Source: a virus
Strand: one strand, 5' to 3'
Virus record (IMG/VR): IMGVR_UViG_3300029286_001647
Length of the DNA stretch: 43,509 bases
The notes under the pieces were generated by a model, which was not told where the DNA came from, searched no databases, and saw only the letters and a program-made list of their open reading frames with translations. A program made the position numbers and the translations under genes. Shown one piece after another: positions 2,797 through 34,422 of this stretch; position 1 is the first letter of the stretch, and each line of letters opens with the position of its first letter.

Positions 2797-3276
2797 TTAT
2801 TCCCCCCTCTTTAAAGCATTTTTGTAATCTTCTTCTGAAATCTCATATTCGGTACAAACTACGCACCATATATTTTTATAGCAATCGAATTCCCCTATCG
2901 CAACGAAATGCTCTTTCTTAATCTTAATAGGAATAGTAATCATCTTACTTAGCCATGCCACAGTGGTAGGTCTATCGAGTCCAGAGTACAAATACTCTGA
3001 TATCAACATCTCATTGCCATTCTCCTCCAAAAAACAATGGCATACCCCGCCATTTAGAGCCTGCCCGTCTGCAAGACAATCTATATGATTAGCCCTAAAC
3101 AACGTCGATAATGGAGTATTAGTGCCAGGCGTTAAAAGGGTATCCATGTACGGAGAAAGCAGAACATCTTTGTGATAGTCACTTACTCTGACTGCTTTAT
3201 AAAACGTCCGCGGTTGACCATCAGTCCAGGCATCGAGATACTCTTGAGTTTTTTTAGCATCTACGATTGTGCACAT
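2797..3276 (-). CDS. MC-family paralog 1 (159 aa, starts MCTIVD)
   Basis: shares N-term 'MCT(I/V)..(K/R)T..(F/Y)L..W.DG..KTF(Y/W)K.V', 'SPY', 'G..H..L' and 'IPI.IKK..F..IG.F' with 4 other ORFs. Confidence 0.6.
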   Translation of the reverse strand: MCTIVDAKKTQEYLDAWTDGQPRTFYKAVRVSDYHKDVLLSPYMDTLLTPGTNTPLSTLFRANHIDCLADGQALNGGVCHCFLEENGNEMLISEYLYSGLDRPTTVAWLSKMITIPIKIKKEHFVAIGEFDCYKNIWCVVCTEYEISEEDYKNALKRGE

Positions 3277-3743
3277 AGGTATTTTCCCTTTACTGCGTCT
3301 TCATAGACTTGTGGGTCGATTGTATATTTCAGAGAGACAACACAAGCTGTTTTCATGTCATCTCCGAAAATGCCTATTCCTCTGAAAGCATCTTTCTTAA
3401 TCTGAATTGGGATCATAGATAAGTCTTTTCTCTCACTCATAGTACGACAATAAACTTTATGAAACTCTTTTGCCTCTGATTCCAATAATAGGCAATGGAA
3501 GAATCCGCAACGAACATCTTCCATTGCGAAAACATCTTCCATCCCTTTAAATCTACCTACAGCATTATCCCCTTTATCGATAGGTATTTCATAATAAGGA
3601 GACATCATTTTAACTGGAACAGGATAGCTTCTTGACACAACGCAAGGTCCAGCGACAACCAGTTTCCAGAAGGTTTTGACTTCTCCGTCTTTCCACTCAG
3701 CGAGAAAACTTTCTGTTCTCGCTCTGTCTACGATTGTACACAT
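3261..3743 (-). CDS. MC-family paralog 2 (160 aa)
   Basis: paralogous to 2797-3276; 16-nt start/stop overlap 'ATGTGCACAATCGTAG' conserved with the next junction. Confidence 0.6.
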   Translation of the reverse strand: MCTIVDRARTESFLAEWKDGEVKTFWKLVVAGPCVVSRSYPVPVKMMSPYYEIPIDKGDNAVGRFKGMEDVFAMEDVRCGFFHCLLLESEAKEFHKVYCRTMSERKDLSMIPIQIKKDAFRGIGIFGDDMKTACVVSLKYTIDPQVYEDAVKGKYLCAQS

Positions 3744-4207
3744 TTGTATTCACCCTCCAAAGCTTTTTGATAGACTTCTGGATCTACGGAGTAGCAAGTA
3801 GATATAACACAATCAACGCCTTCATGATCCGGGAATTCACCTATGCCCAAGAAATCTTTTTTCTTTATCTTGATTGGTATGATAGATATGCTTTTATCCA
3901 TGCTAGGCAAATAGCTACGAAGTTTTTGCGCACTAGCATTATCTAGCAAAGCGTGATAAACACCACCATATATATCAGTTTTGTCGCGCCAGTCTTGGAA
4001 ACATCTAATATATCTAAAACTTTCCCCTTTAGCTATATATGCACTTTGGTATAAAGAAACTAATCCGCTTGGTGAAACCTTTCCAGTATCTTGATTTAAC
4101 GTCTGATATAGACTGAAACAAACCGCTTTGTAGAAGGTCTTTTCTTCTTCGTCTCCCCATTCAGCCAGAAACTTTTCAGTTTTTTCTTTATTGAATACGG
4201 TACACAT
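3728..4207 (-). CDS. MC-family paralog 3 (159 aa)
   Basis: paralogous; C-terminus 'EGEYKCVQS' resembles 'KGKYLCAQS' of paralog 2. Confidence 0.6.
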   Translation of the reverse strand: MCTVFNKEKTEKFLAEWGDEEEKTFYKAVCFSLYQTLNQDTGKVSPSGLVSLYQSAYIAKGESFRYIRCFQDWRDKTDIYGGVYHALLDNASAQKLRSYLPSMDKSISIIPIKIKKKDFLGIGEFPDHEGVDCVISTCYSVDPEVYQKALEGEYKCVQS

Positions 4208-6242: not shown

Positions 6243-6606
6243 GTTCTGCTATTTGTTTCTTAAGATCAGCTATGATACGATTTGCCCTTGCAAGCTCCTC
6301 ATTAGTCTTAGCAAGGCTCTGCATCTCTCCCATAATCTTCTCTTGGAAGTCTTTGCTTCTGGCTTCTTCTGAGAAGTTAAACAAGTGCATCATATTTGCT
6401 TCTCTAAAGATATACTCTGTAAGGACAAACAAATCATCATCATCTCTAAGACCAGTACCGCATTCACTGATTGCAGTTATAATGCTTAGATTCATCGGCT
6501 TCTCTTCTTTTAAAGCGCGAGAATAAGCTTTTGCAGCCGCCTTCATCGGTGTATCTGCGATAATTGCTGTCTCAAAATCACCACTTATAATATAATACTT
6601 TGGCAT
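6202..6606 (-). CDS. hypothetical protein with C-terminal coiled coil (134 aa)
   Basis: ORF track. Confidence 0.5.
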   Translation of the reverse strand: MPKYYIISGDFETAIIADTPMKAAAKAYSRALKEEKPMNLSIITAISECGTGLRDDDDLFVLTEYIFREANMMHLFNFSEEARSKDFQEKIMGEMQSLAKTNEELARANRIIADLKKQIAELEKNKEENDDVSG

Positions 6607-7118
6607 TACTCCTCCTTAACAGACTTTTTTAGCTCATTCAGACGCGCTATAATCTTATCTTGAACCCCTTCGAATGGCACTTTATTGTCAAACGTTGGTA
6701 TTGTATATTTCGTGACAACGGCAGAATTAGGTTCTCCTCCCTTATAATCAAACCTGCCCAAAGCGACGAAATCCTTTTTATCTACCTCGACTTCTACAAT
6801 ATAGCACTCGTATGAACAATGTATTAATTGGGCGCAATTGTTTTGAAGTAGAGCAATAGCCCCGCCTTCTATGATCGAGTCTACGCTTAAAAACAGATGA
6901 GCGCCCCTTGTCACTTCTTTAAGCTCAATCTCTAGATGAGAAAGAGTGTTATCTATTCTACTAGAATAGTTTTCACCGAGATTAATCTCCAATCCCATAT
7001 ATGGAGAAAGATATGCCTCAGGATAGCATCTAACAACCTTAAGAAATGTCTTTTTCTCGCCGTCTTTCCAATCTGCAAGAAACTTGCCAGTTGCCTCTAT
7101 ATCCGGTATTAAGCACAT
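6606..7118 (-). CDS. MC-family paralog 4 (170 aa, MCLIPDIEATGKFLADWKDGEKKTF)
   Basis: same motif set as the 2797-4207 trio. Confidence 0.6.
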   Translation of the reverse strand: MCLIPDIEATGKFLADWKDGEKKTFLKVVRCYPEAYLSPYMGLEINLGENYSSRIDNTLSHLEIELKEVTRGAHLFLSVDSIIEGGAIALLQNNCAQLIHCSYECYIVEVEVDKKDFVALGRFDYKGGEPNSAVVTKYTIPTFDNKVPFEGVQDKIIARLNELKKSVKEE

Positions 7119-24739: not shown

Positions 24740-25432
24740 TTAGAATCCGCGGAAGAGTCGATCAGTGATGCCGTTATAGACCCTACGGAGCATACTGATG
24801 ATTGCGCGAGTAGTGCGCTTGATGATGTCATGAGTGCAGAACCAGAAAACGCTGAGAGGCCAGTATATCATCCACATCAAGATAGTGTCAATGTTCTTGA
24901 CAGCGCGTGGCTTAACAGCTTCGACATCATCAGTATGATACAAACTGACTCCTACGTCTACGCCAGCGCCTTCATAGGCATTGCGGATAATGTTGATAAG
25001 GTCTTGCCTTTGCTGCGAGGTAAGGTTTGCAGCGTGGACACTGATGTCCGTATTGATGCGCGAATAATACTGACGTTTGCATTCAAAAGCGATGTCTGAC
25101 GCTTCTTTGCCCTTAATAAACCACTTGATAATTGACCAAACCCCACCGCAACCAAAGAAGTAGATCAAGAAGCCATAAACGGCGTATTGCCAATTGTCCC
25201 TAACCCAGAACAGCAGATTAAAGTCAGACAAGAAGACAACGAAGGCGAGAAGGTAGAAGGTTGAGAGAGTAGACCACCATCCCTTGCCGTGTTCCTCAAA
25301 AGCGAGAATGACGGCGAGAAAACCTGCGCAAATGATCCAGAACAACGGATTTGATACAGCGAATAGTTGCCAAAACATTGTGATTCCATTTCTTGTAGAA
25401 TACACTGGAATAGAACACTGGGAAGTCCACAC
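24740..25432 (-). CDS. polytopic membrane protein (230 aa; GTG start or internal M19)
   Basis: 4-5 hydrophobic segments. Confidence 0.5.
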   Translation of the reverse strand: MWTSQCSIPVYSTRNGITMFWQLFAVSNPLFWIICAGFLAVILAFEEHGKGWWSTLSTFYLLAFVVFLSDFNLLFWVRDNWQYAVYGFLIYFFGCGGVWSIIKWFIKGKEASDIAFECKRQYYSRINTDISVHAANLTSQQRQDLINIIRNAYEGAGVDVGVSLYHTDDVEAVKPRAVKNIDTILMWMIYWPLSVFWFCTHDIIKRTTRAIISMLRRVYNGITDRLFRGF

Positions 25433-25455: not shown

Positions 25456-25484
25456 ATTTTACCGCGGAAAAGAAACACTTATAA
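25456..25484 (-). promoter_or_regulatory. conserved motif copy 1: coding strand 'AGTGTTTCTTTTCCGCGGTAAAAT'
   Basis: near-palindromic TTTTCCGCGGTAAAA core with -10-like TAAAAT, ~24 nt upstream of the 24740-25432 start. Confidence 0.4.
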
Positions 25485-25490
25485 TGGTTT

Positions 25491-25643
25491 TTAAGCCCAT
25501 CCATCACTGCCCCAATACTCTCGCGGAGTGGGAGGACCGGGAGGTTTCGGATGCCTTTTAATATACCATGCATCAAATAAATTAATGATTATAGGAACTG
25601 CAACAATCAATGTAACAAAATAGCAGATCAGAAAAATCCACAT
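25491..25643 (-). CDS. small membrane protein (50 aa), not in ORF track
   Basis: AGGAG 6 nt upstream of ATG; 'MWIFLICYFVTLIVAVPIIINLF...'. Confidence 0.35.
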   Translation of the reverse strand: MWIFLICYFVTLIVAVPIIINLFDAWYIKRHPKPPGPPTPREYWGSDGWA

Positions 25644-25667
25644 AAGCATCTCCTAGTATAAAGCATA

Positions 25668-25695
25668 ATTTTACTGCGGAAAAGAAACACTATTA
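25668..25695 (-). promoter_or_regulatory. conserved motif copy 2
   Basis: 'AGTGTTTCTTTTCCGCAGTAAAAT' ~30 nt upstream of small ORF 25491-25643. Confidence 0.4.
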
Positions 25696-25712
25696 TTCCA
25701 TGAGTAATATAA

Positions 25713-27023
25713 TTATCCCACAATCTTTCCCTTTTCAACATTTACTTTTTCTCCCTCCGCCAAGCCAAGAACTTTACTATCTAAAATGGCAAAAGGATAA
25801 CTCCCATCGGCATCTTTCCAACGCTGTACCAATACCGCTCCGATATGCACTATCCATCCAACTTTTTCTGAGCATACAGAGCATACAGATGAATTAGAAA
25901 TCTCTACTATGGAACATTGACCAGTGACAGACGAAGAGCATAATTCTCCCATGTTCTTCAATACGGATTGATCTCCAGTTGATGATTGACTGGATTGATA
26001 TCCAGTTGAGGATTGACTGGATTGATCTCCAGTTGATGATTGACTGGATCGATGTCCAGTTGAGGATTGACTGGATCGATATCCAGTTGAGGATTGACTG
26101 GATTGATCTCCAGTTGATGATTGACTGGATCGATGTCCAGTTGAGGATTGACTGGATCGCTCTCCAGTCGATGATTGACTGGATTGATATCCAGTTGATG
26201 ATTGACTGGATTGATATCCAGTTGAGGATTGACTGGATTGATCTCCAGTTGATGATTGACTGGATCGCTCTCCATTCGATGATTGACTGGATTGATATCC
26301 AGTTGATGATTGACTGGATCGATATCCAGTTGAGGATTGACTGGATTGATGTCCAGTTGAGGATTGACTGGATTGATCTCCATTCGATGATTGACTGGAT
26401 TGATATCCAGTTGATGATTGACTGGATCGATATCCAGTTGAGGATTGACTGGATTGATCTCCAGTTGATGATTGACTGGATCGATGTCCAGTTGAGGATT
26501 GACTGGATCGCTCTCCAGTCGATGATTGACTGGATCGATCTCCAGTTGTATACCCATCGTTATTCTTCTTAGAGTCTTCGACAATCCATGCAATTCTTCC
26601 AGATTGTGTAAAATACATAGCAGACGACAATGACCCATTATGAACAACTTCAACAGACTTAGCTTTCACTTTTCCTCCATCGATAGAGACTACATCAGAT
26701 GGAGTAGCAGCAAGCACCAAGAACGGCAAAGTTGCATCTACATCCTTGCCTTCCCCGAGAAACATCCCCCATGGCCAAGCGTGAATCCCATTTCCGCATT
26801 TTGGTTTAGGATCCCAATCTGGACATTCTACAATACCAGACTCAGGCCAAGTAATTACAGGAGCAGTAGTCCCATCTTCCTTATCCATACCGCCTGTAGT
26901 ACGATTTCTCTCGATTTGCTTAACGAGCAAAACCTTTGTTCCATCGTGCGTCCACTGATGGATTGGGATATCAAACACTTTTTCCACATCTTTTACTGGT
27001 TCTTTAATGTCGTTTTCAGCCAT
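25713..27023 (-). CDS. Ser-rich repeat protein (436 aa): N-terminal domain, ~22 copies of the 9-aa repeat 'SSQSSTG(D/Y/H/E)(Q/R)', C-terminal domain
   Basis: encoded by the 27-bp tandem DNA repeat. Confidence 0.65.
   Translation of the reverse strand: MAENDIKEPVKDVEKVFDIPIHQWTHDGTKVLLVKQIERNRTTGGMDKEDGTTAPVITWPESGIVECPDWDPKPKCGNGIHAWPWGMFLGEGKDVDATLPFLVLAATPSDVVSIDGGKVKAKSVEVVHNGSLSSAMYFTQSGRIAWIVEDSKKNNDGYTTGDRSSQSSTGERSSQSSTGHRSSQSSTGDQSSQSSTGYRSSQSSTGYQSSQSSNGDQSSQSSTGHQSSQSSTGYRSSQSSTGYQSSQSSNGERSSQSSTGDQSSQSSTGYQSSQSSTGYQSSQSSTGERSSQSSTGHRSSQSSTGDQSSQSSTGYRSSQSSTGHRSSQSSTGDQSSQSSTGYQSSQSSTGDQSVLKNMGELCSSSVTGQCSIVEISNSSVCSVCSEKVGWIVHIGAVLVQRWKDADGSYPFAILDSKVLGLAEGEKVNVEKGKIVG
25964..26550. 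repeat. tandem 27-bp repeat, ~21-22 copies (plus-strand unit 'ccagttgatgattgactggattgatat')
   Basis: visible directly; patterned variants at 3-4 positions per unit; all six frames open. Confidence 0.9.
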
Positions 27024-27062
27024 TGGATTTTTCTCCTAATACACTGGTTAGCAATGTTTACC

Positions 27063-27090
27063 ATTTTAAGCGGAAAAAGAAACACTATAA
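27063..27090 (-). promoter_or_regulatory. conserved motif copy 3
   Basis: 'AGTGTTTCTTTTTCCGCTTAAAAT' ~40 nt upstream of 25713-27023; preceded by a hairpin in the 3' end of 27085-27315. Confidence 0.4.
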
Positions 27091-27315
27091 GGAGATTTTA
27101 AGGTTTTTAATCTCCCACGAATAGCGATCTTTTTGATCAGTAATATAATCATATGGTGAATCTTCATGTTCAGGAAATGTCTTTTTGAACCATTCTACAA
27201 ATGCATCATTATCTTTTGCATCGTTTTTGACTTGCATAAGGTAAACGCCGGGGAAGACCCATCCATTGGAGTGGAGGACCATATCGTGACGATTAATAAC
27301 AACAAGCACTTTCAT
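27085..27315 (-). CDS. hypothetical protein (76 aa)
   Basis: ORF track; 3' end forms a hairpin followed by a U-rich tract. Confidence 0.45.
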   Translation of the reverse strand: MKVLVVINRHDMVLHSNGWVFPGVYLMQVKNDAKDNDAFVEWFKKTFPEHEDSPYDYITDQKDRYSWEIKNLKISL

Positions 27316-27428: not shown

Positions 27429-27457
27429 ATTTTACCGCGAAAAAGAAACACTAATTA
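27429..27457 (-). promoter_or_regulatory. conserved motif copy 4
   Basis: 'AGTGTTTCTTTTTCGCGGTAAAAT' directly after the stop of 27455-27934. Confidence 0.4.
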
Positions 27458-27934
27458 ATCTCCTGTATTTTCTTCTTGAGGGTAGAAATGATATCTAGGC
27501 ACCATATAAAACTTATCTATCAAAAGCTTCCATTTTGCCATTTGTTCTATCCATTTAAAAACAGCATAATTTGTGTCATATATTTCTGGCAGAAATTTAC
27601 AGCAAGTCAATGGGCTGCTTGCTCTCCAGTGAAGACAGCAAACGTGACAAACTCCCCTATATCCATATTCTGCCGCAAGTATATATTCTGCTTCTCTACC
27701 ACAGCATGGGCAAAAACCAGCCCAGGGATATTGTTCTCTCCGTATAATATGATTTTCATTAGGCTCATTTTTAATCTGCCTGTCTCTATTTTCATTATAA
27801 AAAGCATTTGCATTCCAGCAATCAGATATAAAACCAGCAGCATGGGATGCACGTTCCATTTCTTTTGAAAGTTGTATAGCAGCTTCTTCAATCTCATTAA
27901 GGTTCATCTCGTTCATTTTCTCTCTTTTAAACAT
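27455..27934 (-). CDS. hypothetical Cys-rich protein (159 aa)
   Basis: 'FCPCCGREAEY...CHVCCLHW'. Confidence 0.5.
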   Translation of the reverse strand: MFKREKMNEMNLNEIEEAAIQLSKEMERASHAAGFISDCWNANAFYNENRDRQIKNEPNENHIIRREQYPWAGFCPCCGREAEYILAAEYGYRGVCHVCCLHWRASSPLTCCKFLPEIYDTNYAVFKWIEQMAKWKLLIDKFYMVPRYHFYPQEENTGD

Positions 27935-28129: not shown

Positions 28130-28873
28130 TCACTCAAATAAATCGATATGGTTCTGTCTGTGGTTCTCTATCCGCTGCTTCGCCATTTCGTAGTACTTAG
28201 GCTCTTTCTCCACAAGCAAATAATCCAATCCCTTAATCTCACAAGCAATACCAGTGGTTGCAGATCCGCACATCGGGTCTAATACAAATCCTTTATCGGG
28301 ACAACCTATATCCAACATACGAGTGATTAGCCATAAAGGTTTCTGATGTGGATGACCGACTCTCTCACTTCCATGAGTAATAGAACTTTTCCAGCAGTTC
28401 CTTAATTGAGTTCCACCATTATGCAACTTAGACTTTTCATAATCAAAGAAGTAGTCTTTAGTCTTTGCTGCCCAAATGATATGTTCACAGCTTTCTATTA
28501 GTCCCTGTCTCGTCACGCTAAAGAAAGCATTATCCTTAAACCATACAATAGAATTGACGATCCAGAAGCCAAAATGCCTTTTAAGCAAGTCGCCAAGGAA
28601 ATAGATGTTATGGAGCGATCCAAAGGCGAAAATGCTTCCTGTGTCCTTCAACAAAGGCACAAGGGTTTCTATATTGGTCTTGTAGGAATCATATTGCTCT
28701 TGAACGGAATTGAATGTATCCCAATCCTCAGCAGACTTCTTCCACTTCTTTTCCTTATGTTCTATTTTGGAATTGCCTATTCCGTATGGAGGATCCCAAA
28801 GAACAAAATCTACTGTATTAGGCTGAACGTGATTGCTCAGGTTCGCCATATCATCATTTATAATTCCGCCCAT
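28130..28873 (-). CDS. DNA methyltransferase, beta-class N6-adenine/N4-cytosine (N6_N4_Mtase family)
   Basis: motif IV 'DPPYG' before motif I 'LDPMCGSATTGIA'; 'HPHQKP'. Confidence 0.85.
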   Translation of the reverse strand: MGGIINDDMANLSNHVQPNTVDFVLWDPPYGIGNSKIEHKEKKWKKSAEDWDTFNSVQEQYDSYKTNIETLVPLLKDTGSIFAFGSLHNIYFLGDLLKRHFGFWIVNSIVWFKDNAFFSVTRQGLIESCEHIIWAAKTKDYFFDYEKSKLHNGGTQLRNCWKSSITHGSERVGHPHQKPLWLITRMLDIGCPDKGFVLDPMCGSATTGIACEIKGLDYLLVEKEPKYYEMAKQRIENHRQNHIDLFE

Positions 28874-28883
28874 ATAACTCCTA

Positions 28884-29624
28884 TTAGCTTATTTCTACAT
28901 CATCAATATAATGATCGAAGCTTTCTTTGTTTATCTCAAACCCACAAGGTCTTCTATTGAGACGCTGAGACACAATCGCTGTCGTAAAGTTCCCTAAGAA
29001 GAAATCACAAACAACATCTTCTTCTTGAGAAGAATAGCTTATGATCTTCTCAATCAATGCTTCTGGAAGTTTGTTCACGTTCTTTACTGCGCCAGGGCAA
29101 TACTCTTTGTTGATCGTCCAAACATCTTCCATATCCTTATAAACCATAGAACGACCTTTATTAGTTCTCGCATCGTCTTGGAACCTACAATTCCTATTGA
29201 AATACGGTTTGGCTTTCTTGCTCTTTTTGCAATACAGAATATGGTAATGTGAGCTGACAAACTTCTTTTTCGTGTAAACTCCAAAGTTGTATTTCCATAT
29301 AATGTGATTGATTACAACAAATCCTGCTTCATTCAGAGCGTTTAGGACATGGTTAAGGTTTGTCCATCCTGAGAAGACATAGAAGCTTCCATTAGGCTTT
29401 AGAACGCGATATGCTTCTTTCATCCATTCTGTAGTGAACCTGTAATAATCTGGAGGCGCTTCTACATATCCAGATATGATGTTATTCGCCTTACGATTAT
29501 AATGTTGCTTATCGAAAGATGTTTCTGATAGACCGAAAGGAGGATCGCAGATCATAAGGTCTACAGATCCATCAGCAATATATTTTTTCGCGCCAGAAAT
29601 GCAATCTTCATTGTATATATTCAT
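28884..29624 (-). CDS. DNA methyltransferase, beta-class N6A/N4C, with degenerate motif I
   Basis: 'MICDPPFG' then 'VVCDFFLGNFTTAIV'. Confidence 0.75.
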   Translation of the reverse strand: MNIYNEDCISGAKKYIADGSVDLMICDPPFGLSETSFDKQHYNRKANNIISGYVEAPPDYYRFTTEWMKEAYRVLKPNGSFYVFSGWTNLNHVLNALNEAGFVVINHIIWKYNFGVYTKKKFVSSHYHILYCKKSKKAKPYFNRNCRFQDDARTNKGRSMVYKDMEDVWTINKEYCPGAVKNVNKLPEALIEKIISYSSQEEDVVCDFFLGNFTTAIVSQRLNRRPCGFEINKESFDHYIDDVEIS

Positions 29625-30118
29625 TTCTTATTGGCGCGCTCCTTAAGGTCTTCTCTGACTTTCGTAATTGCTTCGCCCAGCCAGTTAGTCCCTTGCCAAT
29701 TCTTCCTGTCGTAAATGCGAGGATCATCCTTTGCCATATGTATTCCCCATATAGCATCCGTAGGAGATGCTTCCACTAACAAAGTCCCATCCGTCTCGAC
29801 AAGGCTTTTCATCATATGATCATTTTGAGTGAACTTCGCCATATTGCCTTGATATACAATGTCTTTGGCTACTGCTTGCCATCTCTCTACATCAAAATCT
29901 TTTACCTGCTTACCCAAAGCTTTCTGCTCTCTGGGGTCAGATGTTGACATAATTCGCTCAAGGATTTCATAATCTGCAAACATGACAGCTTTATTTGCCA
30001 TCATCCACTGTTCCGCTGAATTATACTTAACCCCATCAATTACGAAATCGCATCTTGCCCATTGGGAAAAAGGACCACCATAGAAAAACGTAAACTTATC
30101 ATACTTCTCGAAATCCAT
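29621..30118 (-). CDS. NADAR (YbiA/DUF1768) domain protein
   Basis: 'FFYGGPFSQWARCDFVIDGVKYNSAEQWMMANKAVMF' and 'EASPTDAIWGIH' parallel E. coli YbiA (recalled). Confidence 0.75.
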   Translation of the reverse strand: MDFEKYDKFTFFYGGPFSQWARCDFVIDGVKYNSAEQWMMANKAVMFADYEILERIMSTSDPREQKALGKQVKDFDVERWQAVAKDIVYQGNMAKFTQNDHMMKSLVETDGTLLVEASPTDAIWGIHMAKDDPRIYDRKNWQGTNWLGEAITKVREDLKERANKK

Positions 30119-30126
30119 ACTACCTC

Positions 30127-30519
30127 CTATTTCATTGACTTATAAGACTTGAGCATTAGCGCAACTCCCGCCGCAAGCATAATGATCATCAAAATAAAAT
30201 GCGTTGTCTTAATGTTCATGAAGAATTGAATTCTGCTGATAATCTCAATCCCGATAATCCCAAGACCACACCACATCAAGACCCACGCCCAAGTCCAACG
30301 TGCATTATAGAACAAAGCCACTACACCTGCGAAGAAGGGAACAAAAATAATGCCCATAGAAGTGGTATGTCCAGACCCACGAAAACAACCGCTGACCCAT
30401 CCATATCCTCCCGTAGTCACTCGAACAGAATCGAAGAAGAAATAGACTGCCAGCGCAGCCAGAAGGAAACCGATCAGATAAGTTCCAACTCCACCACTTG
30501 TTCCACCGCTACCACGCAT
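30127..30519 (-). CDS. membrane protein (130 aa, 4 TM)
   Basis: hydrophobic throughout. Confidence 0.5.
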   Translation of the reverse strand: MRGSGGTSGGVGTYLIGFLLAALAVYFFFDSVRVTTGGYGWVSGCFRGSGHTTSMGIIFVPFFAGVVALFYNARWTWAWVLMWCGLGIIGIEIISRIQFFMNIKTTHFILMIIMLAAGVALMLKSYKSMK

Positions 30520-30947
30520 TTCTTGTTTTCCTTTTCTTTTGATGGCCAGAAGTATTCAAGATTAGGACCGATGTCCCAATGAAATTGTCCGTAATGGACA
30601 GGATCTTTTCTCAACAGATTACTTTGATGACTTCGATGATAACGATTATCACCTAACCACCAAGGAATAGATACCTTGCCTAAATTAGTTCTCATTTCTT
30701 CAAACTTCGGCAGCAAGCTATCATTGTATCCCCTGCTAATCCATTCACGGCACATATAGATACCATAAACGCAAAGCAGAGGTTCAAAGCCTTTCCATTG
30801 TTTGACAGCAGGATGATTGCGCCAACCTCCGTCATTCAGCAACGTATTGAGTATCTGCCAAGCTTCGACTCGCTGTTTGCCGCATCGCCGATAATCGAGG
30901 CACTTAGCAGTTTCTCTGAACGACATATATGGTAAAAAGGTTTGCAT
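30474..30947 (-). CDS. hypothetical protein (157 aa)
   Basis: ORF track. Confidence 0.5.
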   Translation of the reverse strand: MQTFLPYMSFRETAKCLDYRRCGKQRVEAWQILNTLLNDGGWRNHPAVKQWKGFEPLLCVYGIYMCREWISRGYNDSLLPKFEEMRTNLGKVSIPWWLGDNRYHRSHQSNLLRKDPVHYGQFHWDIGPNLEYFWPSKEKENKKCVVAVEQVVELELI

Positions 30948-30995: not shown

Positions 30996-31976
30996 TCATT
31001 CACCTTTCCGTTTTTCGCGGAAATCGCAAACCCAACATTTATGTGCATAAGAGAATCGTATATTCCCATTCACTCCATCTTCTGTACGATAATCACCGGC
31101 AGATGCGTGATACTTGCACTCTTGCCATAAATGACAAGATTCACTTTTGCAGATTGGAACGCAGCCAGGAACAAATCCATTTGTCACTGCCTTTTGATTC
31201 AAAGAGATATAAGCGTCAACAGGTTCGTAATAAGGCTCTCCGCGGGAGACAAATGAATCTACTCTCGAAAATATGTCTTCTACAATCTGAACTTTGTTAT
31301 TCGATTTATGCCATTCACTCTCCCCAAAATTAGATGGAGGAACAGTATCCAACAGGATAGCACAATGAGTTTTGGCTTCCCTCATCATCTTCTTGTCATT
31401 GACAACTACGAGATTTGCCTGATTTCTCTCCAAAGACTTAAATCCAATCTCAAGAAGCTCATCAAAAGTTCTATTGATTTCGAACTTGAAAGCGACAATA
31501 AAGAAATTAGGGTCTTTATTCCATTCACGGAAATGAGTGATGATCTTTGGATTGAGAACAATCTTTTGCCTCATATACTCAATCAAAGCTTCTGGATCAT
31601 CAGATTTCAGCTTGATACCTTCACCTTCGTCTTTTTTGAAACCGAAGTCAGCAACTGCCATAGCGTGAACAATGGCATCAGCTTTCGGAACAAGAAGCTC
31701 TAGCATTTCAAAAGCGTCTTGTGCAGAATAGACTGTATAGGTCTTAACCTCTCCTCTATAGTAGTTTCTATTCGCAATAGATTCTACAATTGTCCTGCCA
31801 TATTCTATATCCTTAGACCCTGTCGTTTGTACGAAATCAACATCCCATCCCTTTTCGGAGAAGTATGCGGCTGCAATTGCTCCAAGAGCGCCAGACGATA
31901 CGTTTGTGATCAAACGAAAATCGTCTACCTTCTCTTTTGTCCCGCCTGAAGTCACGATTACTTTTTTGTTAGGCAT
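30996..31976 (-). CDS. coaB: phosphopantothenate-cysteine ligase (CoaB domain) with Cys-rich C-terminal extension
   Basis: 'KKVIVTSGGTKEKVDDFRLITNVSSGALGAIAA' matches CoaB/DFP; start set at ATG 31976 with a GGAGAG ribosome-binding site. Confidence 0.8.
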   Translation of the reverse strand: MPNKKVIVTSGGTKEKVDDFRLITNVSSGALGAIAAAYFSEKGWDVDFVQTTGSKDIEYGRTIVESIANRNYYRGEVKTYTVYSAQDAFEMLELLVPKADAIVHAMAVADFGFKKDEGEGIKLKSDDPEALIEYMRQKIVLNPKIITHFREWNKDPNFFIVAFKFEINRTFDELLEIGFKSLERNQANLVVVNDKKMMREAKTHCAILLDTVPPSNFGESEWHKSNNKVQIVEDIFSRVDSFVSRGEPYYEPVDAYISLNQKAVTNGFVPGCVPICKSESCHLWQECKYHASAGDYRTEDGVNGNIRFSYAHKCWVCDFREKRKGE

Positions 31977-31977
31977 T

Positions 31978-32235
31978 TTATCTCTCCGATTCTGGAATCT
32001 TAGGTCTTTCAACCACTTTGCAACCTAGCGCCGTAGCAATTGCAGAAACTATTTCTGAACATTTCTCCAGATGTATTTCTTTGTCGAATTGAGTCTCAAG
32101 GAAATACGGTGTAATCGCATTGATTACATTTCCGTTTAGGTATAGATTAACATGGACGAGTTGCATACGTCCACCTACAACAAGCTTTCTATATTCTTTT
32201 TCGACTATCAAAACATTCTCATCGCTCATAGTCAT
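31978..32235 (-). CDS. hypothetical protein (85 aa)
   Basis: ORF track. Confidence 0.4.
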   Translation of the reverse strand: MTMSDENVLIVEKEYRKLVVGGRMQLVHVNLYLNGNVINAITPYFLETQFDKEIHLEKCSEIVSAIATALGCKVVERPKIPESER

Positions 32236-32794
32236 CTCCTTGCCATTTTAAGGCATTGTTAAGGCGTATAGTAGGATCTAAAAGGTTTTCTGGCTGAGGT
32301 TGATCCAATTCCCATCCTCCCGCCGAGATCTTACCATGTCTGTACAAATGCAAATGCAACATTGATCGTGGTCTACCTTTGTCTTTCTTCAACACTCTCT
32401 TAACATATCCAACCAGATCGCCAGCTAAAACAGGTTCGCCTATTTTAATTGTACGAGATACGTCAATCTCTCCATAAGCGACAACTCCGCTTTCGCCAGC
32501 TATAAGAACAGCTTCCGTATCTTCCCACCAATCGCAACCGGCTTTCTTTCCAGTCCAAGCTTCGATAAGAACAGGAATCCCATCCTCAACTGCGTAAACA
32601 GGAGTTCCTTCAGGGCAATATAAGTCTACTCCTCCGTGAACATCATGTTTTCTCTTCGCACCAAAAGCGCCACAATGTTCTCCAAAAGGGATTTCTACTT
32701 GTTTAGTGATATCGATCTTACGAAATGATTCAGAATCATCCGTTAAATCAAGCACTTCCATTCTAAGAGGGAATTTCCAAAGCGGCATCTTCAT
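32219..32794 (-). CDS. M23/LytM peptidoglycan endopeptidase
   Basis: 'HGGVDLYCPEGTPVYAVEDG' (HxxxD) and 'MLHLHLY' (HxH). Confidence 0.75.
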   Translation of the reverse strand: MKMPLWKFPLRMEVLDLTDDSESFRKIDITKQVEIPFGEHCGAFGAKRKHDVHGGVDLYCPEGTPVYAVEDGIPVLIEAWTGKKAGCDWWEDTEAVLIAGESGVVAYGEIDVSRTIKIGEPVLAGDLVGYVKRVLKKDKGRPRSMLHLHLYRHGKISAGGWELDQPQPENLLDPTIRLNNALKWQGDDYER

Positions 32795-33362
32795 CCTCCA
32801 ATAACTTATTTACAAACTCAACTACTTTTCTTGGTTCTTCTGCTTTACCCTTACCCACATCTCCACAAGCCAGTCTCCCCACTACTGGCTCTATAAAATG
32901 GATAACAGGTCGATGTATATGATTGAGTATATCGGTAAAAGCGAATAACAAAGTCCTCATATTTTTGACATTGATGGGATGCTCATACATCCTCGTGTTG
33001 CAAGCAGGGCAAATAACAATCCTGCACTTATCTAATGGCAAAGCCATAAAAGTAGTAGAAAGCAAATCATCTGCAATCCCATTGGCAAACTTAGCCATAA
33101 TGTTTACAGTCGCAGGATAAACGAGAAATACATCCGCCCAAGTCGCAAGTTCAATATGTTTGATCGAAGTACGTCTTTCCCACATACTTGTATGTACTTC
33201 TCCTCCAGAGACGCTTTCGATTGTCAATGGAGTAATAAACTTTGTGGCATTCTCTGTCATAATAGTCTTAACTTTATGACCAGTCGCCAGTAAGCCAGAG
33301 ATAACGTCACAAGCCTTATAGGCTGCAATCCCGCCAGTAATACCAAGTAGTATGTTTGCCAT
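32763..33362 (-). CDS. coaC: phosphopantothenoylcysteine decarboxylase (CoaC flavoprotein)
   Basis: 'MANILLGITGGIAAYK', 'FITPLTIESVSG', 'ICPACN', 'LACGDVGKGK' parallel E. coli Dfp N-domain; AGGAG ribosome-binding site. Confidence 0.85.
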   Translation of the reverse strand: MANILLGITGGIAAYKACDVISGLLATGHKVKTIMTENATKFITPLTIESVSGGEVHTSMWERRTSIKHIELATWADVFLVYPATVNIMAKFANGIADDLLSTTFMALPLDKCRIVICPACNTRMYEHPINVKNMRTLLFAFTDILNHIHRPVIHFIEPVVGRLACGDVGKGKAEEPRKVVEFVNKLLEDEDAALEIPS

Positions 33363-33366
33363 GTTC

Positions 33367-34422
33367 TTACTCCTGTGATGGAGCGACTGCCCATCCGATT
33401 TCAGGCTCAACAGATACGCTATCTCTTGAGGAGACTCCAAGTAGCCCAGCATAGAAATCATACTTGTATTCTGTCCCAAGGTATTCCCATATAAACGGGA
33501 CTTTGCTGACAGATGATGGAAGCCTATCTGAAGTCAATCCTCCAAATAAATCTGCTGTAATAACATCAATATAAGGATTTCTTGTGAAAGGATCTCCATC
33601 ATTATATTGATTCTCAAGATACGGGAAGAGATTTACCATCCACCCTTTAATATATGGACCTCCGCTCTGGTTCTCTTTATTATAGGCTCTGCTCCAGAAA
33701 GCAGAATTAGCATTCCCTTTCTTAGCCTCGATAAACTCGTCCAAAATCTCCAGCACGGACTTAGTCCACCACCCAAGACCGTATTGTTCCCATTGAGCGA
33801 CTTTCTCTTTCATCTTCTCCCAATCGCCCAATGTCCCGCAGATATAGATGTTTGGAATACCGCACATTGTACACACTCTATATTCAAAATATGCTTTCAT
33901 TGCATCCATCAATACGATCTCACTTGCTGCTTTCTCTACGTTGCCAGTTGTAGAGAAGTCAGCTACGATAAGGCTGTGAGTTTGTTCACCGATATGTTTC
34001 TTAATTTCGGCGGAAAAAAGAGCAAAGTCTTTCTCCCAATCATTATCAGGACTTCCTTTAACAAGGCTATCGTCGCGTACTCTGATTAAAAGCTTACCTT
34101 CGTGAGAAACAAACTTGCTTCTTAGATCTTCTGCATTCATATTGATATGATTAGCAAGACCCTGAGTTAGAGTAATCCACATAACATCAGGCGTGATCCA
34201 CAGGTTATGATGATGATCGAAAGCATATTCAACAGCAGACATAAGGCAATGAAAAGGAGCAGCATTGATGACTTCTACGTTCTTAGAGCAAGCCTCTGGA
34301 CTCACTCCAGAAAGCTTCTTGAAGAAGCTTCCCAGAGCCATACTGCCCTGAGTAGATACTTTCATCTCTGCAACGTTATTCCCCTGGACTTTAGTTGTTT
34401 CCATCATCCCATTGAATCTCAT
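33367..34422 (-). CDS. hypothetical protein (351 aa)
   Basis: ORF track; no family recognised. Confidence 0.55.
   Translation of the reverse strand: MRFNGMMETTKVQGNNVAEMKVSTQGSMALGSFFKKLSGVSPEACSKNVEVINAAPFHCLMSAVEYAFDHHHNLWITPDVMWITLTQGLANHINMNAEDLRSKFVSHEGKLLIRVRDDSLVKGSPDNDWEKDFALFSAEIKKHIGEQTHSLIVADFSTTGNVEKAASEIVLMDAMKAYFEYRVCTMCGIPNIYICGTLGDWEKMKEKVAQWEQYGLGWWTKSVLEILDEFIEAKKGNANSAFWSRAYNKENQSGGPYIKGWMVNLFPYLENQYNDGDPFTRNPYIDVITADLFGGLTSDRLPSSVSKVPFIWEYLGTEYKYDFYAGLLGVSSRDSVSVEPEIGWAVAPSQE

What the first reader, a model, noticed from the sequence alone, without database searches (positions are those of the whole stretch)
25713..27023. Ser-rich protein built from ~22 copies of a 27-bp repeat with patterned variation
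The repeat encodes 'SSQSSTG' followed by D, Y, H or E and then Q or R. Nucleotide variation is confined to three or four positions per unit, so only those two residues change from copy to copy. The repeat block is open in all six frames. Flanking N- and C-terminal globular domains have no recognisable family. Possible roles include a glycosylated or serine-rich adhesin-like fibre, a length-variable spacer, or a contingency locus that expands and contracts.
Basis: seen in the sequence. Interest (0 to 1): 0.55.

Follow-up and report, generated by a model that had tools for sequence, protein, structure and literature searches.

The report
Phage repeat protein forming variable beta-solenoid
This gene belongs to a large, uncharacterised family of non-structural phage proteins in which a tandem 27-bp repeat probably encodes a stiff beta-solenoid rod that differs between copies at only two residues; it is not a sugar-coated virion fibre.

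Summary
The repeat is real. ORF 25713-27023 (minus strand, 436 aa) holds 21 full and 2 partial 27-bp units encoding SSQSSTG[DYHE][QR]. Two details of the finding are wrong: 7 of 27 nucleotide positions vary, not 3-4, and the block is open in 4 of 6 frames, not all six.

The protein is not an orphan. More than 2,000 database representatives match it at E<=0.001. Of the best 150, 121 share its head domain, followed by 0-22 nonapeptide repeats and a tail domain. The head links transitively to Pfam DUF7666.

In 83 relatives, variation within each protein falls on the two residues after an invariant Gly (1.3 and 1.2 bits, against 0.15 bits or less at most other positions).

Homologues lie in early or lysogeny modules, for example ES18 gp53 just after the antiterminator gene. 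Copy number differs by whole units among near-identical Pseudomonas and Acinetobacter phages.

Length variability is supported. An adhesin or virion fibre is not. Biochemical function remains unknown.

The parts
25713..27023 (-). Complete coding sequence, 436 aa plus stop. Three parts: head domain, nonapeptide repeat array, tail domain.
   Evidence: ORF list. The exact protein is in the collection as a singleton from a 43,509-bp JGI contig.
26556..27023 (-). N-terminal head domain (aa 1 to about 156). It is a divergent relative of DUF7666 with a weak ADP-ribosyltransferase-like fold.
25965..26555 (-). Tandem array of 27-bp units: 21 full units (25971-26537) plus 2 partial ones. It encodes [QR]SSQSS[TN]G[DYHE] and is modelled as a two-sheet beta-solenoid with about two units per coil.
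25716..25964 (-). C-terminal tail domain (aa 354-436), called type 1 here. It is all-beta and probably caps the solenoid.
   Evidence: pLDDT is 89-97. It is shared by 46 of 121 head-containing relatives. The rest carry a different type-2 tail with the motif VGE.GI.PDTWY.
27033..27037 (-). Shine-Dalgarno-like AGGAG, 9 nt upstream of the ATG.
   Evidence: Read directly from the sequence.
27063..27088 (-). Promoter-like motif TAGTGTTTCTTTTTCCGCTTAAAAT, about 40 nt upstream of the start codon. It is one of four copies placed before four consecutive genes.
   Evidence: Pattern searches give 3-5 matches against 0.00-0.18 expected by chance. Alignment of the four copies. Repeat family D3. Promoter function is inferred, not shown.

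Best explanation
The gene encodes a cytoplasmic, non-structural phage accessory protein. It belongs to a large uncharacterised superfamily that includes the DUF7666 proteins such as Salmonella phage ES18 gp53.

Structure (modelled). The 27-bp array is translated into a rigid two-sheet beta-solenoid. Each 9-residue unit forms one 7-residue strand plus a Thr-Gly turn, and two units make one coil of about 4.8 A. About 22 units would therefore give a rod of roughly 5 nm. The head and tail domains cap its two ends.

Variable positions. Seven of the nine residues are kept nearly identical within each protein. The two residues just after the invariant Gly are kept different from unit to unit: D/Y/H/E then Q/R here, and D/Y/N then R/Q/S/Y across the family. 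They begin each strand and should therefore line the two narrow edges of the rod.

Evolution. Arrays gain, lose and reorder whole units by in-frame recombination or slippage between the near-identical repeats. A small alphabet of unit types is reshuffled in this way.

What is shown: the repeat anatomy, the family-wide two-residue variability, copy-number change among near-identical phages, and the early or lysogeny-module position of homologues.

What is modelled: the solenoid.

What is inferred: the protein acts inside the infected or lysogenic cell in phage-host conflict (host takeover, counter-defence or exclusion); the variable edges or the rod length tune an interaction; and the head binds a ligand, possibly NAD-related.
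For: Anatomy of the array.

Family and architecture:
- 2,493 representatives match at E<=0.001. Of the best 150, 121 have the head domain, with 0-22 units.
- The same three-part architecture appears in P0002-P0004, Salmonella P0202, Haemophilus P0230 and ES18 gp53.

Two-residue variability:
- In 83 proteins the within-protein entropy is 1.33 and 1.22 bits at the two residues after the invariant Gly. It is 0.15 bits or less at six other columns and 0.39 at one.
- In Pseudomonas phages only 3-5 distinct 27-mers occur. In phi2 and BR313a every difference lies inside the 6-nt block for those two residues.
- The di-residues of this window (DQ, YQ, YR, DR and others) include the four commonest in the family.

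Solenoid model:
- AlphaFold2 strand-turn periodicity.
- The degenerate relative E. coli YdhT has Ile/Val at repeat position 3, as expected for an inward-facing core residue.

Length change:
- Gene lengths of 864, 945, 1026 and at least 1323 nt occur among phages 86-100% identical in nucleotide sequence. The differences are multiples of 27.
- Sibling Acinetobacter phages have 345 and 291 aa (PMC7354433).
- A 54-bp in-frame deletion arose in a gene annotated ydhT_1 during Serratia laboratory evolution (PMC12505973). That this gene carries the repeat was not checked.

Non-structural context: ES18 early-left operon, phi2, D14O, metagenome loci L004 and L008 beside recombination and replication genes. 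The window gene has its own Shine-Dalgarno sequence and promoter-like motif. It has no signal peptide.
Against: - The solenoid is only a model. pLDDT in the repeats is 64-78, pTM is 0.42, and the other four models scored lower.
- This member's repeat has no hydrophobic residues (Ser 43%, Gln 17%), so it could be disordered in isolation.
- No lag-2 periodicity of the variable residues was seen.
- No experiment on any family member was found in the literature.
- No PADLOC defence model matches.
- No conserved partner gene was seen. The conflict role rests on gene position alone.
- No close relative of this gene exists, so variability in this lineage is untested.
Confidence: 0.55

Rival explanations
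1. The head is an active ADP-ribosyltransferase (a toxin or host-modifying effector). The solenoid and tail position it, target it or regulate it. The protein would modify a host or defence component, as AcrIF11 and the T4 Alt and Mod enzymes do, or act as the toxin of a toxin-antitoxin pair.
For: - The authors of phage fEg-Aba01 independently annotated the homologue as an ADP-ribosyltransferase from similarity to Arr, and proposed a toxin-antitoxin pair (PMC7354433).
- In canonical DUF7666 proteins His42 (98%), Tyr53/54 (94% and 100%), Asp77 (95%) and Glu90 (97%) are conserved, in the order of an H-Y-E/D triad.
- The window protein keeps His81 and Glu125.
Against: - In the window's own subfamily the His is replaced by Phe in 44% of members and the Glu is present in only 50%. 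The two residues are anti-correlated (Fisher p=3e-9), so no catalytic pair is conserved.
- A DUF7666 sequence profile finds no PDB chain.
- No Pfam ART family is hit.
- The strictly conserved residues are Cys76, Gly79, Lys118, Lys120 and Gly130, which are not a known ART signature.
Confidence: 0.15
2. The repeat is an intrinsically disordered, low-complexity Ser/Gln/Thr/Gly linker whose only role is to separate the two globular domains by a variable distance.
For: The composition is wholly polar with GRAVY -1.6. pLDDT is moderate. Copy number is highly variable across the family, from 0 to 22 units, and head-only proteins such as P0001 exist.
Against: - Linkers do not normally hold seven positions fixed while keeping exactly two variable across hundreds of proteins.
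- The family consensus shows an alternating small-residue pattern with an invariant Gly. YdhT shows Ile/Val at the predicted core position.
Confidence: 0.15
3. The protein is a virion fibre or adhesin, possibly glycosylated on serine.
For: The repeat region gives PHROG hits to families labelled tail fiber (E=1e-8 to 1e-3). NCBIfam gives below-cutoff hits to collagen-like adhesins. Beta-solenoids are common in tailspikes.
Against: - Those hits are restricted to the low-complexity region and fall far below curated cutoffs (49 bits against a cutoff of 500).
- The collagen and 8zxl matches arise from Gly periodicity alone.
- There is no signal peptide.
- No structural genes were identified among the window ORFs scanned or read by eye.
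- Homologues lie in early or lysogeny operons.
- One family member is fused to a domain that NCBI names "phage non-structural protein".
Confidence: 0.03
4. The copy number, and possibly the order of units, in this contig is partly an assembly artefact of a short-read metagenome. The gene itself would still be real.
For: Exact internal duplicates of 120 bp and 82 bp occur at unit-multiple offsets. The protein is a singleton from one contig. Several relatives are truncated or frameshifted inside their arrays: P0194 and fEg-Aba01 gp28c. Some records were linearised inside the gene.
Against: The reading frame is intact across 584 bp. The array is flanked by unique sequence. Relatives with 18-22 units exist (P0021, P0005, P0009).
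Confidence: 0.2

Closest known systems
DUF7666 (Pfam PF24703) proteins of phages and prophages, e.g. Salmonella phage ES18 gp53, Pseudomonas phage phi2 ALY08205, Haemophilus and Salmonella prophage proteins
   Same: The three-part architecture is the same: a head of about 100-150 aa, perfect nonapeptide repeats with an invariant Gly followed by two variable residues (SAATNTG[DYN][QRW]), and a small beta tail. Copy number is variable. The genes lie in early or lysogeny modules.
   Different: The window head falls below the Pfam threshold (15.3 bits against 27) and links only through an intermediate, the D14O protein. It has WPWG where DUF7666 has YYPP. Its tail is the alternative type 1. Its repeat is all-polar (SSQSSTG), with Gln where the family usually has Ala.
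E. coli K-12 YdhT (b1669, NCBIfam PRK09946), the last gene of the ydhYVWXUT operon
   Same: It has nonapeptide repeats of the form x-x-[IV]-x-S-x-G-[DYEN]-x and the type-2 tail. NCBIfam hits: window E=2e-12, P0202 E=2e-17.
   Different: Both scores are far below the equivalog cutoff (47 and 64 bits against 300). YdhT repeats are degenerate and partly hydrophobic. Its head is unrelated. The gene is chromosomal and sits in a redox-enzyme operon.
RTX nonapeptide beta-roll and the Marinomonas primoryensis antifreeze protein region IV (PDB 3p4g)
   Different: There is no GGxGxDxUx consensus: no Gly-Gly, no conserved Asp and no hydrophobic position 8. There is no HemolysinCabind hit. No secretion signal is evident from the sequence, and the protein looks cytoplasmic.
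Curli subunit CsgA (PDB 8c50, 8enq)
   Different: Curli units are 19-23 residues long and the protein is secreted to form extracellular amyloid fibres. Here there is no signal peptide, no csg genes were seen among the window ORFs scanned or read by eye, and globular caps at both ends argue against open-ended polymerisation.
TAL-effector repeat-variable di-residues (an analogy in logic only)
   Same: Near-perfect tandem repeats in which two adjacent residues per unit are the only variable positions. They are drawn from a small alphabet and reordered between alleles.
   Different: TALE repeats are 34-residue alpha-helical hairpins with a demonstrated base-recognition code. Here the units are 9-residue beta strands, no ligand is known, and there is no homology.
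Small ADP-ribosyltransferases (Rhs toxin TreTu 7zhl, anti-CRISPR AcrIF11 6kyf, Arr)

Membership tests
DUF7666 (PF24703) superfamily | The Pfam HMM matches above the gathering score (27 bits). | tested here: not met
   The isolated head domain scores 15.3 bits, E=0.028, matching only residues 57-86. Only 2 of 50 subfamily members give even a weak hit.
DUF7666 (PF24703) superfamily | Homology of the head domain, shown through an intermediate sequence. | tested here: met
   The window head matches the phage D14O protein at 34% identity over 93 aa: BLASTP E=9e-13, and tblastn E=1e-4 against 2.3 Gb. The D14O protein scores 38.8 bits, E=1.4e-9, on PF24703 over 91 of 95 profile positions.
DUF7666 (PF24703) superfamily | Direct profile-to-profile similarity of the two head-domain alignments. 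| tested here: inconclusive
   hhalign gives E=0.08 over 115 columns. The motif order looks sensible (K / F-Q-[WY] / C-x-x-G-[LF]-H / K), but the match is not significant.
DUF7666 (PF24703) superfamily | Architecture: head, then nonapeptide repeats with an invariant Gly and a variable di-residue, then a small beta tail. | tested here: met
   Both tail types occur with the window-type head.
PHROG families 18079 (head) and 4433 (repeats) | A significant HMM match. | tested here: met
   phrog_18079 E=4e-8 on residues 50-138. phrog_4433 E=3e-28. Both families are annotated as unknown function.
ADP-ribosyltransferase fold superfamily | The split beta-sheet ART fold. | tested here: inconclusive
ADP-ribosyltransferase fold superfamily | A conserved catalytic triad (H-Y-E/D or R-S-E). 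| tested here: not met
   In the window subfamily the His is present in 54% of members (Phe in 44%) and the Glu in 50%. The two are anti-correlated. The triad is conserved in canonical DUF7666 (H 98%, Y 100%, E 97%), and the window protein itself has H81 and E125.
ADP-ribosyltransferase fold superfamily | NAD+ binding and transfer activity. | not testable with these tools
   Needs biochemistry.
RTX calcium-binding nonapeptide repeats | The GGxGxDxUx consensus and a HemolysinCabind HMM hit. | tested here: not met
   The unit is SSQSSTG[DYHE][QR], with one Gly, a non-conserved acidic residue and no hydrophobic residue. There is no Pfam hit at E<=1.
RTX calcium-binding nonapeptide repeats | A two-sheet beta-roll with about 18 residues per coil. 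| tested here: met
Collagen-like and Scl/Lcl adhesins | Gly-X-Y triplets, with Gly at every third residue. | tested here: not met
   Gly occurs every ninth residue. The hits to Pfam Collagen, NCBIfam adhesins and PDB 8zxl align only the Gly periodicity and fall far below cutoffs.
Serine-rich repeat or glycosylated surface adhesins and virion fibres | A signal peptide or anchor, or a position in a structural gene module. | tested here: not met
   There is no hydrophobic N-terminus (maximum KD19 is 1.4, at residue 380). The neighbouring genes are non-structural. Homologues lie in early operons.
Diversity-generating retroelement target | A template repeat elsewhere, adenine-specific mismatches and a reverse transcriptase. 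| tested here: not met
   The array has no second copy in the 43.5-kb window. The variable bases are not adenine-specific.
Phase-variable contingency locus | A change in repeat number shifts the reading frame or alters promoter spacing to switch expression. | tested here: not met
   The unit is 27 bp, a multiple of 3. All observed length differences between relatives are in-frame multiples of 27.
Length-polymorphic (VNTR-like) coding repeat | Copy number differs between closely related genomes. | tested here: met
   Met for the family: Pseudomonas phages and Acinetobacter phages. It could not be tested for this lineage, which has no close relative.

The most novel reading that the evidence does not exclude
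The family is a natural programmable beta-solenoid. The string of repeat-variable di-residues, drawn from a small alphabet such as DQ, YQ, YR, HR and ER, would form two ladders with 4.8-A spacing that read out or match a periodic ligand. The ligand could be an extended nucleic acid, a glycan, a peptide strand or a filament lattice. Phages would then re-write specificity by shuffling 27-bp cassettes. This is a TALE-like recognition logic in an all-beta scaffold, used in phage-host conflict.
Probability: 0.08. Interest if true: 0.85.

Novelty: new variant of a known kind. Interest (0 to 1): 0.5.

Why it matters
This gene is one more member of a family that databases already catalogue (DUF7666, PHROGs 18079 and 4433), although it is a divergent one. 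It has the longest array class, an all-polar repeat, and a head and tail that Pfam does not recognise.

The family is the more interesting result. It is widespread in phages and prophages of Salmonella, Pseudomonas, Haemophilus, Acinetobacter and many uncultured phages. It sits at the early-operon hot-spot where anti-restriction and exclusion genes usually lie. It has a distant cellular cousin in E. coli K-12, YdhT. No paper on it was found.

Its repeats show an unusual evolutionary signature. About 21 of 27 nucleotides are homogenised, while a 6-nt block is kept polymorphic within every array and is reshuffled between near-identical phages. That signature argues for selection on the two variable residues.

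If the family has a binding or enzymatic role, it would be a new class of phage-host conflict protein and a possible engineerable beta-solenoid scaffold. If the variation serves only to stabilise the fold, it is still a useful natural case for repeat-protein design.

Tried and rejected
- Nucleotide search of the region against 50,697 phage records: no match.
- Collagen-like, Scl, Lcl and PDB 8zxl "fibril" hits: rejected as artefacts of Gly periodicity and composition.
- PHROG "tail fiber" hits: restricted to the low-complexity region and contradicted by gene context.
- PADLOC defence models: no hit for four family members.
- Foldseek against PDB with the full model: nothing at E<1.
- The afdb50 library was unavailable.
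- hhalign of the window-type head against the DUF7666 head: not significant in either global or local mode. The link was made through an intermediate sequence instead.
- DUF7666 profile against PDB sequences: no hit.
- DNA-mimic idea (Ocr, ArdA or pentapeptide-repeat style, prompted by the "pentapeptide" annotation in Rheinheimera phages): rejected because the repeat region has net charge about 0 and pI 7.1.
- Diversity-generating retroelement mutagenesis: rejected because there is no template copy and no adenine bias.
- Period-2 or period-3 ordering of the variable residues that might reflect coil stacking: none found.
- Co-variation of the candidate catalytic His and Glu: they are anti-correlated.
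- Close relatives for a direct copy-number comparison: none in IMG/VR, JGI metagenomes or the 90% clusters. The best hits are 66% identity to a repeat-less protein, and 40-48% in the contig scans.
- ES18 gp53 DNA against complete E. coli genomes: no match.
- Literature searches (DUF7666; ES18 gp53; nonapeptide repeat with prophage; 27-bp tandem repeat; Rheinheimera pentapeptide): nothing on the family.
- The 78-aa "antitoxin" upstream of the Acinetobacter homologue shows no resemblance by eye to the 76-aa gene upstream here.
Full report
**1. The observation**

ORF 25713..27023 on the minus strand encodes 436 aa. Tandem Repeats Finder reports one strong array at 25965-26548: period 27, 21.6 copies, 89% matches, no indels, score 888.

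Cutting the coding sequence in register gives 21 complete units (aa 163-351, window 25971-26537). A partial unit flanks each end (...GYTTGD and QS...). Each unit encodes [QR]SSQSS[TN]G[DYHE]. Three details are not.

- Seven of the 27 nucleotide columns vary, not three or four. Two are synonymous Ser positions, and one gives Thr to Asn in two units.
- The block is open in four frames, not six. Two plus-strand frames carry 29 and 33 stops.
- The flanking domains are recognisable (section 2).

The units fall into about six haplotypes arranged in higher-order blocks. Units 1-4 resemble units 14-17, and units 4-6 resemble units 8-10. The longest exact internal duplicate is 120 bp at an offset of 13 units. 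This is the signature of block duplication. It also means the exact copy number in a short-read assembly needs independent confirmation. The protein is a singleton from one 43.5-kb JGI contig.

**2. The protein belongs to a big family**

The head (aa 1-162) matches phrog_18079 at E=4e-8, and the repeat matches phrog_4433 at E=3e-28. An exhaustive HMMER search of 1.8 billion representatives found 2,493 proteins at E<=0.001 and 44 at E<=1e-30. Among the best 150:

- 121 contain the head domain, followed by 0-22 nonapeptide units. The median is about 8. The window protein and P0021, each with about 22 units, are the longest.
- 46 also share the window's tail domain.
- The others carry a second tail type with the motif VGE.GI.PDTWY...G.FVE.

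A profile search also reached bona fide DUF7666 (PF24703) proteins from Salmonella, Haemophilus, Cupriavidus and Massilia. These have the same three-part architecture.

The window head itself misses the Pfam threshold (15.3 bits against 27). Direct profile-profile comparison is not significant (E=0.08). The link can still be made through an intermediate. The head matches a Pseudomonas phage D14O protein (34% identity, BLASTP E=9e-13), and that protein passes PF24703 at 38.8 bits. I therefore treat the window protein as a divergent variant of the DUF7666 nonapeptide-repeat superfamily.

NCBIfam adds E. coli K-12 YdhT as a distant cellular relative of the repeat-plus-type-2-tail module. Its units are degenerate, x-x-[IV]-x-S-x-G-[DYEN]-x.

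**3. The patterned variation is a family trait**

I put the repeats of 83 relatives with at least about 6 units into register on the invariant Gly. The mean within-protein entropy is 1.33 and 1.22 bits at the next two residues. It is 0.15 bits or less at six of the remaining columns and 0.39 at the seventh.

- The family consensus is [SG][SA]A[SA][AS][ST]G.
- The first variable residue is mostly D, Y or N. The second is mostly S, R, Y, Q or G.
- Across 159 proteins the commonest di-residues are YQ, DR, YR and DQ, which is the alphabet used in this window.

The DNA of four Pseudomonas phages shows how sharp this pattern is. Each array uses only 3-5 distinct 27-mers. In phi2 and BR313a these are identical over 21 nt and differ by several substitutions packed into the 6-nt block encoding NR, DY or YQ.

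Neutral concerted evolution would not concentrate multi-nucleotide differences in two codons while erasing everything else. Something maintains diversity at exactly these two residues. Targeted mutagenesis of the retroelement type is excluded. The array has no template copy in the window, and the variable bases are not adenine-specific.

**4. Arrays change length and order between close relatives**

Pseudomonas phages phi2, 5371, BR313a and Flu_PA14_4 have nearly identical heads and tails. They carry about 16, 13, 10 and at least 26-29 units, with different di-residue strings. Over 27 records the gene measures 864, 945, 1026 or at least 1323 nt at 86-100% nucleotide identity, and the differences are multiples of 27.

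In three sibling Acinetobacter phages the homologue is 345 aa, 291 aa (6 units fewer), or frameshifted inside the array (PMC7354433). A laboratory-evolved Serratia symbiotica line acquired a 54-bp deletion in a gene annotated ydhT_1 (PMC12505973). That is two units if the gene is of this type, which I did not verify.

The "expands and contracts" idea is therefore supported for the family. Because the unit is 27 bp, the changes are in frame and cannot act as an on/off switch. For the window's own lineage the test is impossible. No sequence closer than 66% identity exists, and that one is a repeat-less protein from high-GC contigs.

**5. Structure**

AlphaFold2 was run with a 50-sequence family alignment.

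| Region | pLDDT |
|---|---|
| Head | 88-98 |
| Tail | 89-97 |
| Repeat array | 64-78 |

- three-sided beta-helices, at lower scores.

3p4g has 19 residues per coil, so the model must have about 18, which is two units per coil. About 22 units then give roughly 11 coils, or about 5 nm.

The alternation implied by the exposed, semi-variable column 2 and by the Ile/Val at column 3 of YdhT places columns 3 and 5 in the core. It also places the variable pair at the start of each strand, along the two narrow edges. This placement is inference, because I had no coordinates.

Caveats: the confidence in the repeats is moderate. This member's repeat is entirely polar (Ser 43%, Gln 17%, net charge about 0), so a disordered state cannot be excluded.

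The sequence does not fit RTX (no GGxGxDxUx, no HemolysinCabind hit), collagen (Gly every ninth residue) or curli (no signal peptide).

**6. The head domain**

Independently, the authors of phage fEg-Aba01 annotated the homologue as an ADP-ribosyltransferase from similarity to Arr.

Canonical DUF7666 conserves His (98%), Tyr-Tyr (94% and 100%), Asp (95%) and Glu (97%), in the order of an H-Y-E/D triad. In the window's subfamily, however, the His is Phe in 44% of members, the Glu is present in 50%, and the two are anti-correlated. The invariant residues are Cys76, Gly79, Lys118, Lys120 and Gly130.

I conclude that the fold is ART-like but catalysis is unproven, and doubtful for this subfamily. 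The window protein itself retains His81 and Glu125.

**7. Context**

All ORFs in the window that look like genes are on the minus strand. Those I could name are accessory functions.

- By tool: a major-vault-protein-like gene, DUF4419 and an RtcB ligase.
- By eye from the translations: two DNA methyltransferases, NADAR, CoaB/C-like, NUDIX, a kinase, PP2C, vWA and HNH.

No structural genes, few PHROG hits and no tRNAs were found. The best RtcB matches are in jumbo phages. The contig is most likely an accessory region of a large uncultured phage, but that is not proven.

The gene has an AGGAG 9 nt before the ATG. It also has a 25-nt motif, TAGTGTTTCTTTT(T)CCGC(G)GTAAAAT, about 40 nt upstream. 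The same motif precedes the three neighbouring genes, giving four copies against about 0 expected by chance.

Annotated homologues are never in virion modules.

- ES18 gp53 lies in the early-left operon between the gene-24 antiterminator and cIII/kil. From general knowledge of lambdoid phages, lambda and P22 carry ral, sieB or gene 17 at that position.
- The D14O and phi2 homologues lie beside repressor genes.
- The Acinetobacter homologues lie between excisionase and Xre/CI.
- Metagenomic relatives sit next to RusA, a PD-(D/E)XK nuclease, AAA_24 and an SNF2 helicase.
- One relative is fused to a domain that NCBI names "A1S_2505 family phage non-structural protein".

**8. Verdict**

The interpretation as a Ser-rich glycosylated fibre is not supported.

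The best reading is a cytoplasmic early or accessory protein built as head, beta-solenoid rod and tail cap. Its array is remodelled in whole 27-bp units, and its two variable residues per unit are under some form of diversity-maintaining selection. What the protein binds or does is unknown. A role in phage-host conflict is inferred from gene position only.

The protein is a divergent variant of a catalogued but unstudied family. No literature on the family was found.

Noticed in passing
window 25456-25495, 25668-25707, 27063-27102, 27429-27468 (minus strand); weaker copy at 9937-9966: A 25-nt motif, TAGTGTTTCTTTTCCGCGGTAAAAT, sits upstream of four consecutive minus-strand genes: 27085-27315, the target gene, 25491-25649 and 24740-25432. 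It ends in a TAAAAT that resembles a -10 element, but it has no good -35 element. It may be a phage-specific promoter or operator that marks a co-regulated four-gene cassette.
   Followed up: partly
window 14965-17241 (minus strand): A 758-aa protein has significant Pfam hits to the Major Vault Protein shoulder domain (E=7e-28) and to a vault repeat (E=1e-11). This is unusual for a phage-like contig.
   Followed up: no
window 2797-4207 and 6606-7118 (minus strand): At least four paralogous genes of about 160 aa all start MCT(I/V).. / MCLIPD... They share internal DNA repeats (repeat families D2 and D5). They have no Pfam hit, so this is a locally expanded gene family of unknown function.
   Followed up: no
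window 36594-37421 (minus strand); tandem repeat at 36632-36687: A second, short coding repeat of 18 or 21 bp gives ...SYDGGSSYDGGSSYDGGG... at the C-terminus of a 275-aa acidic protein.
   Followed up: no
window 28130-29624, 29621-30118, 30474-30947, 30996-33479, 35838-36518, 39732-43112: By eye from the translations the window holds a dense set of accessory genes. They include two adjacent DNA methyltransferases, a NADAR-like protein, a pyrimidine-dimer-glycosylase-like protein and CoaB/CoaC-like genes split by an M23 peptidase. They also include a PspA/IM30-like protein, a Ser/Thr kinase, HNH, PP2C and a vWA protein. These assignments were not verified with profile searches.
   Followed up: no
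P0194 and L020:2453-3040, Acinetobacter phage fEg-Aba01 gp28c: Some family members are read in a shifted frame inside the array, giving ...VALPRPRVG... and ...QQALLLATT... Frameshifts or sequencing errors inside these arrays therefore occur and produce spurious truncated annotations.
   Followed up: partly
P0200 and P0209: Two relatives carry an extra N-terminal domain, NCBIfam NF049995 "A1S_2505 family phage non-structural protein" (E=2.5e-38), fused in front of DUF7666.
   Followed up: partly
L014:4748-5560, E. coli K-12 ydhT (b1669): The uncharacterised YdhT protein is the last gene of the ydhYVWXUT oxidoreductase operon. It contains about 13 degenerate copies of the same nonapeptide repeat and the type-2 tail of the phage family. 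This suggests a cellular origin or a domesticated copy of the module.
   Followed up: partly
L004:6001-6462 (protein P0001): The closest relative of the window head (66% identity) comes from high-GC contigs. It is a natural head-only protein with no repeat array or tail, so the head domain can exist on its own.
   Followed up: partly
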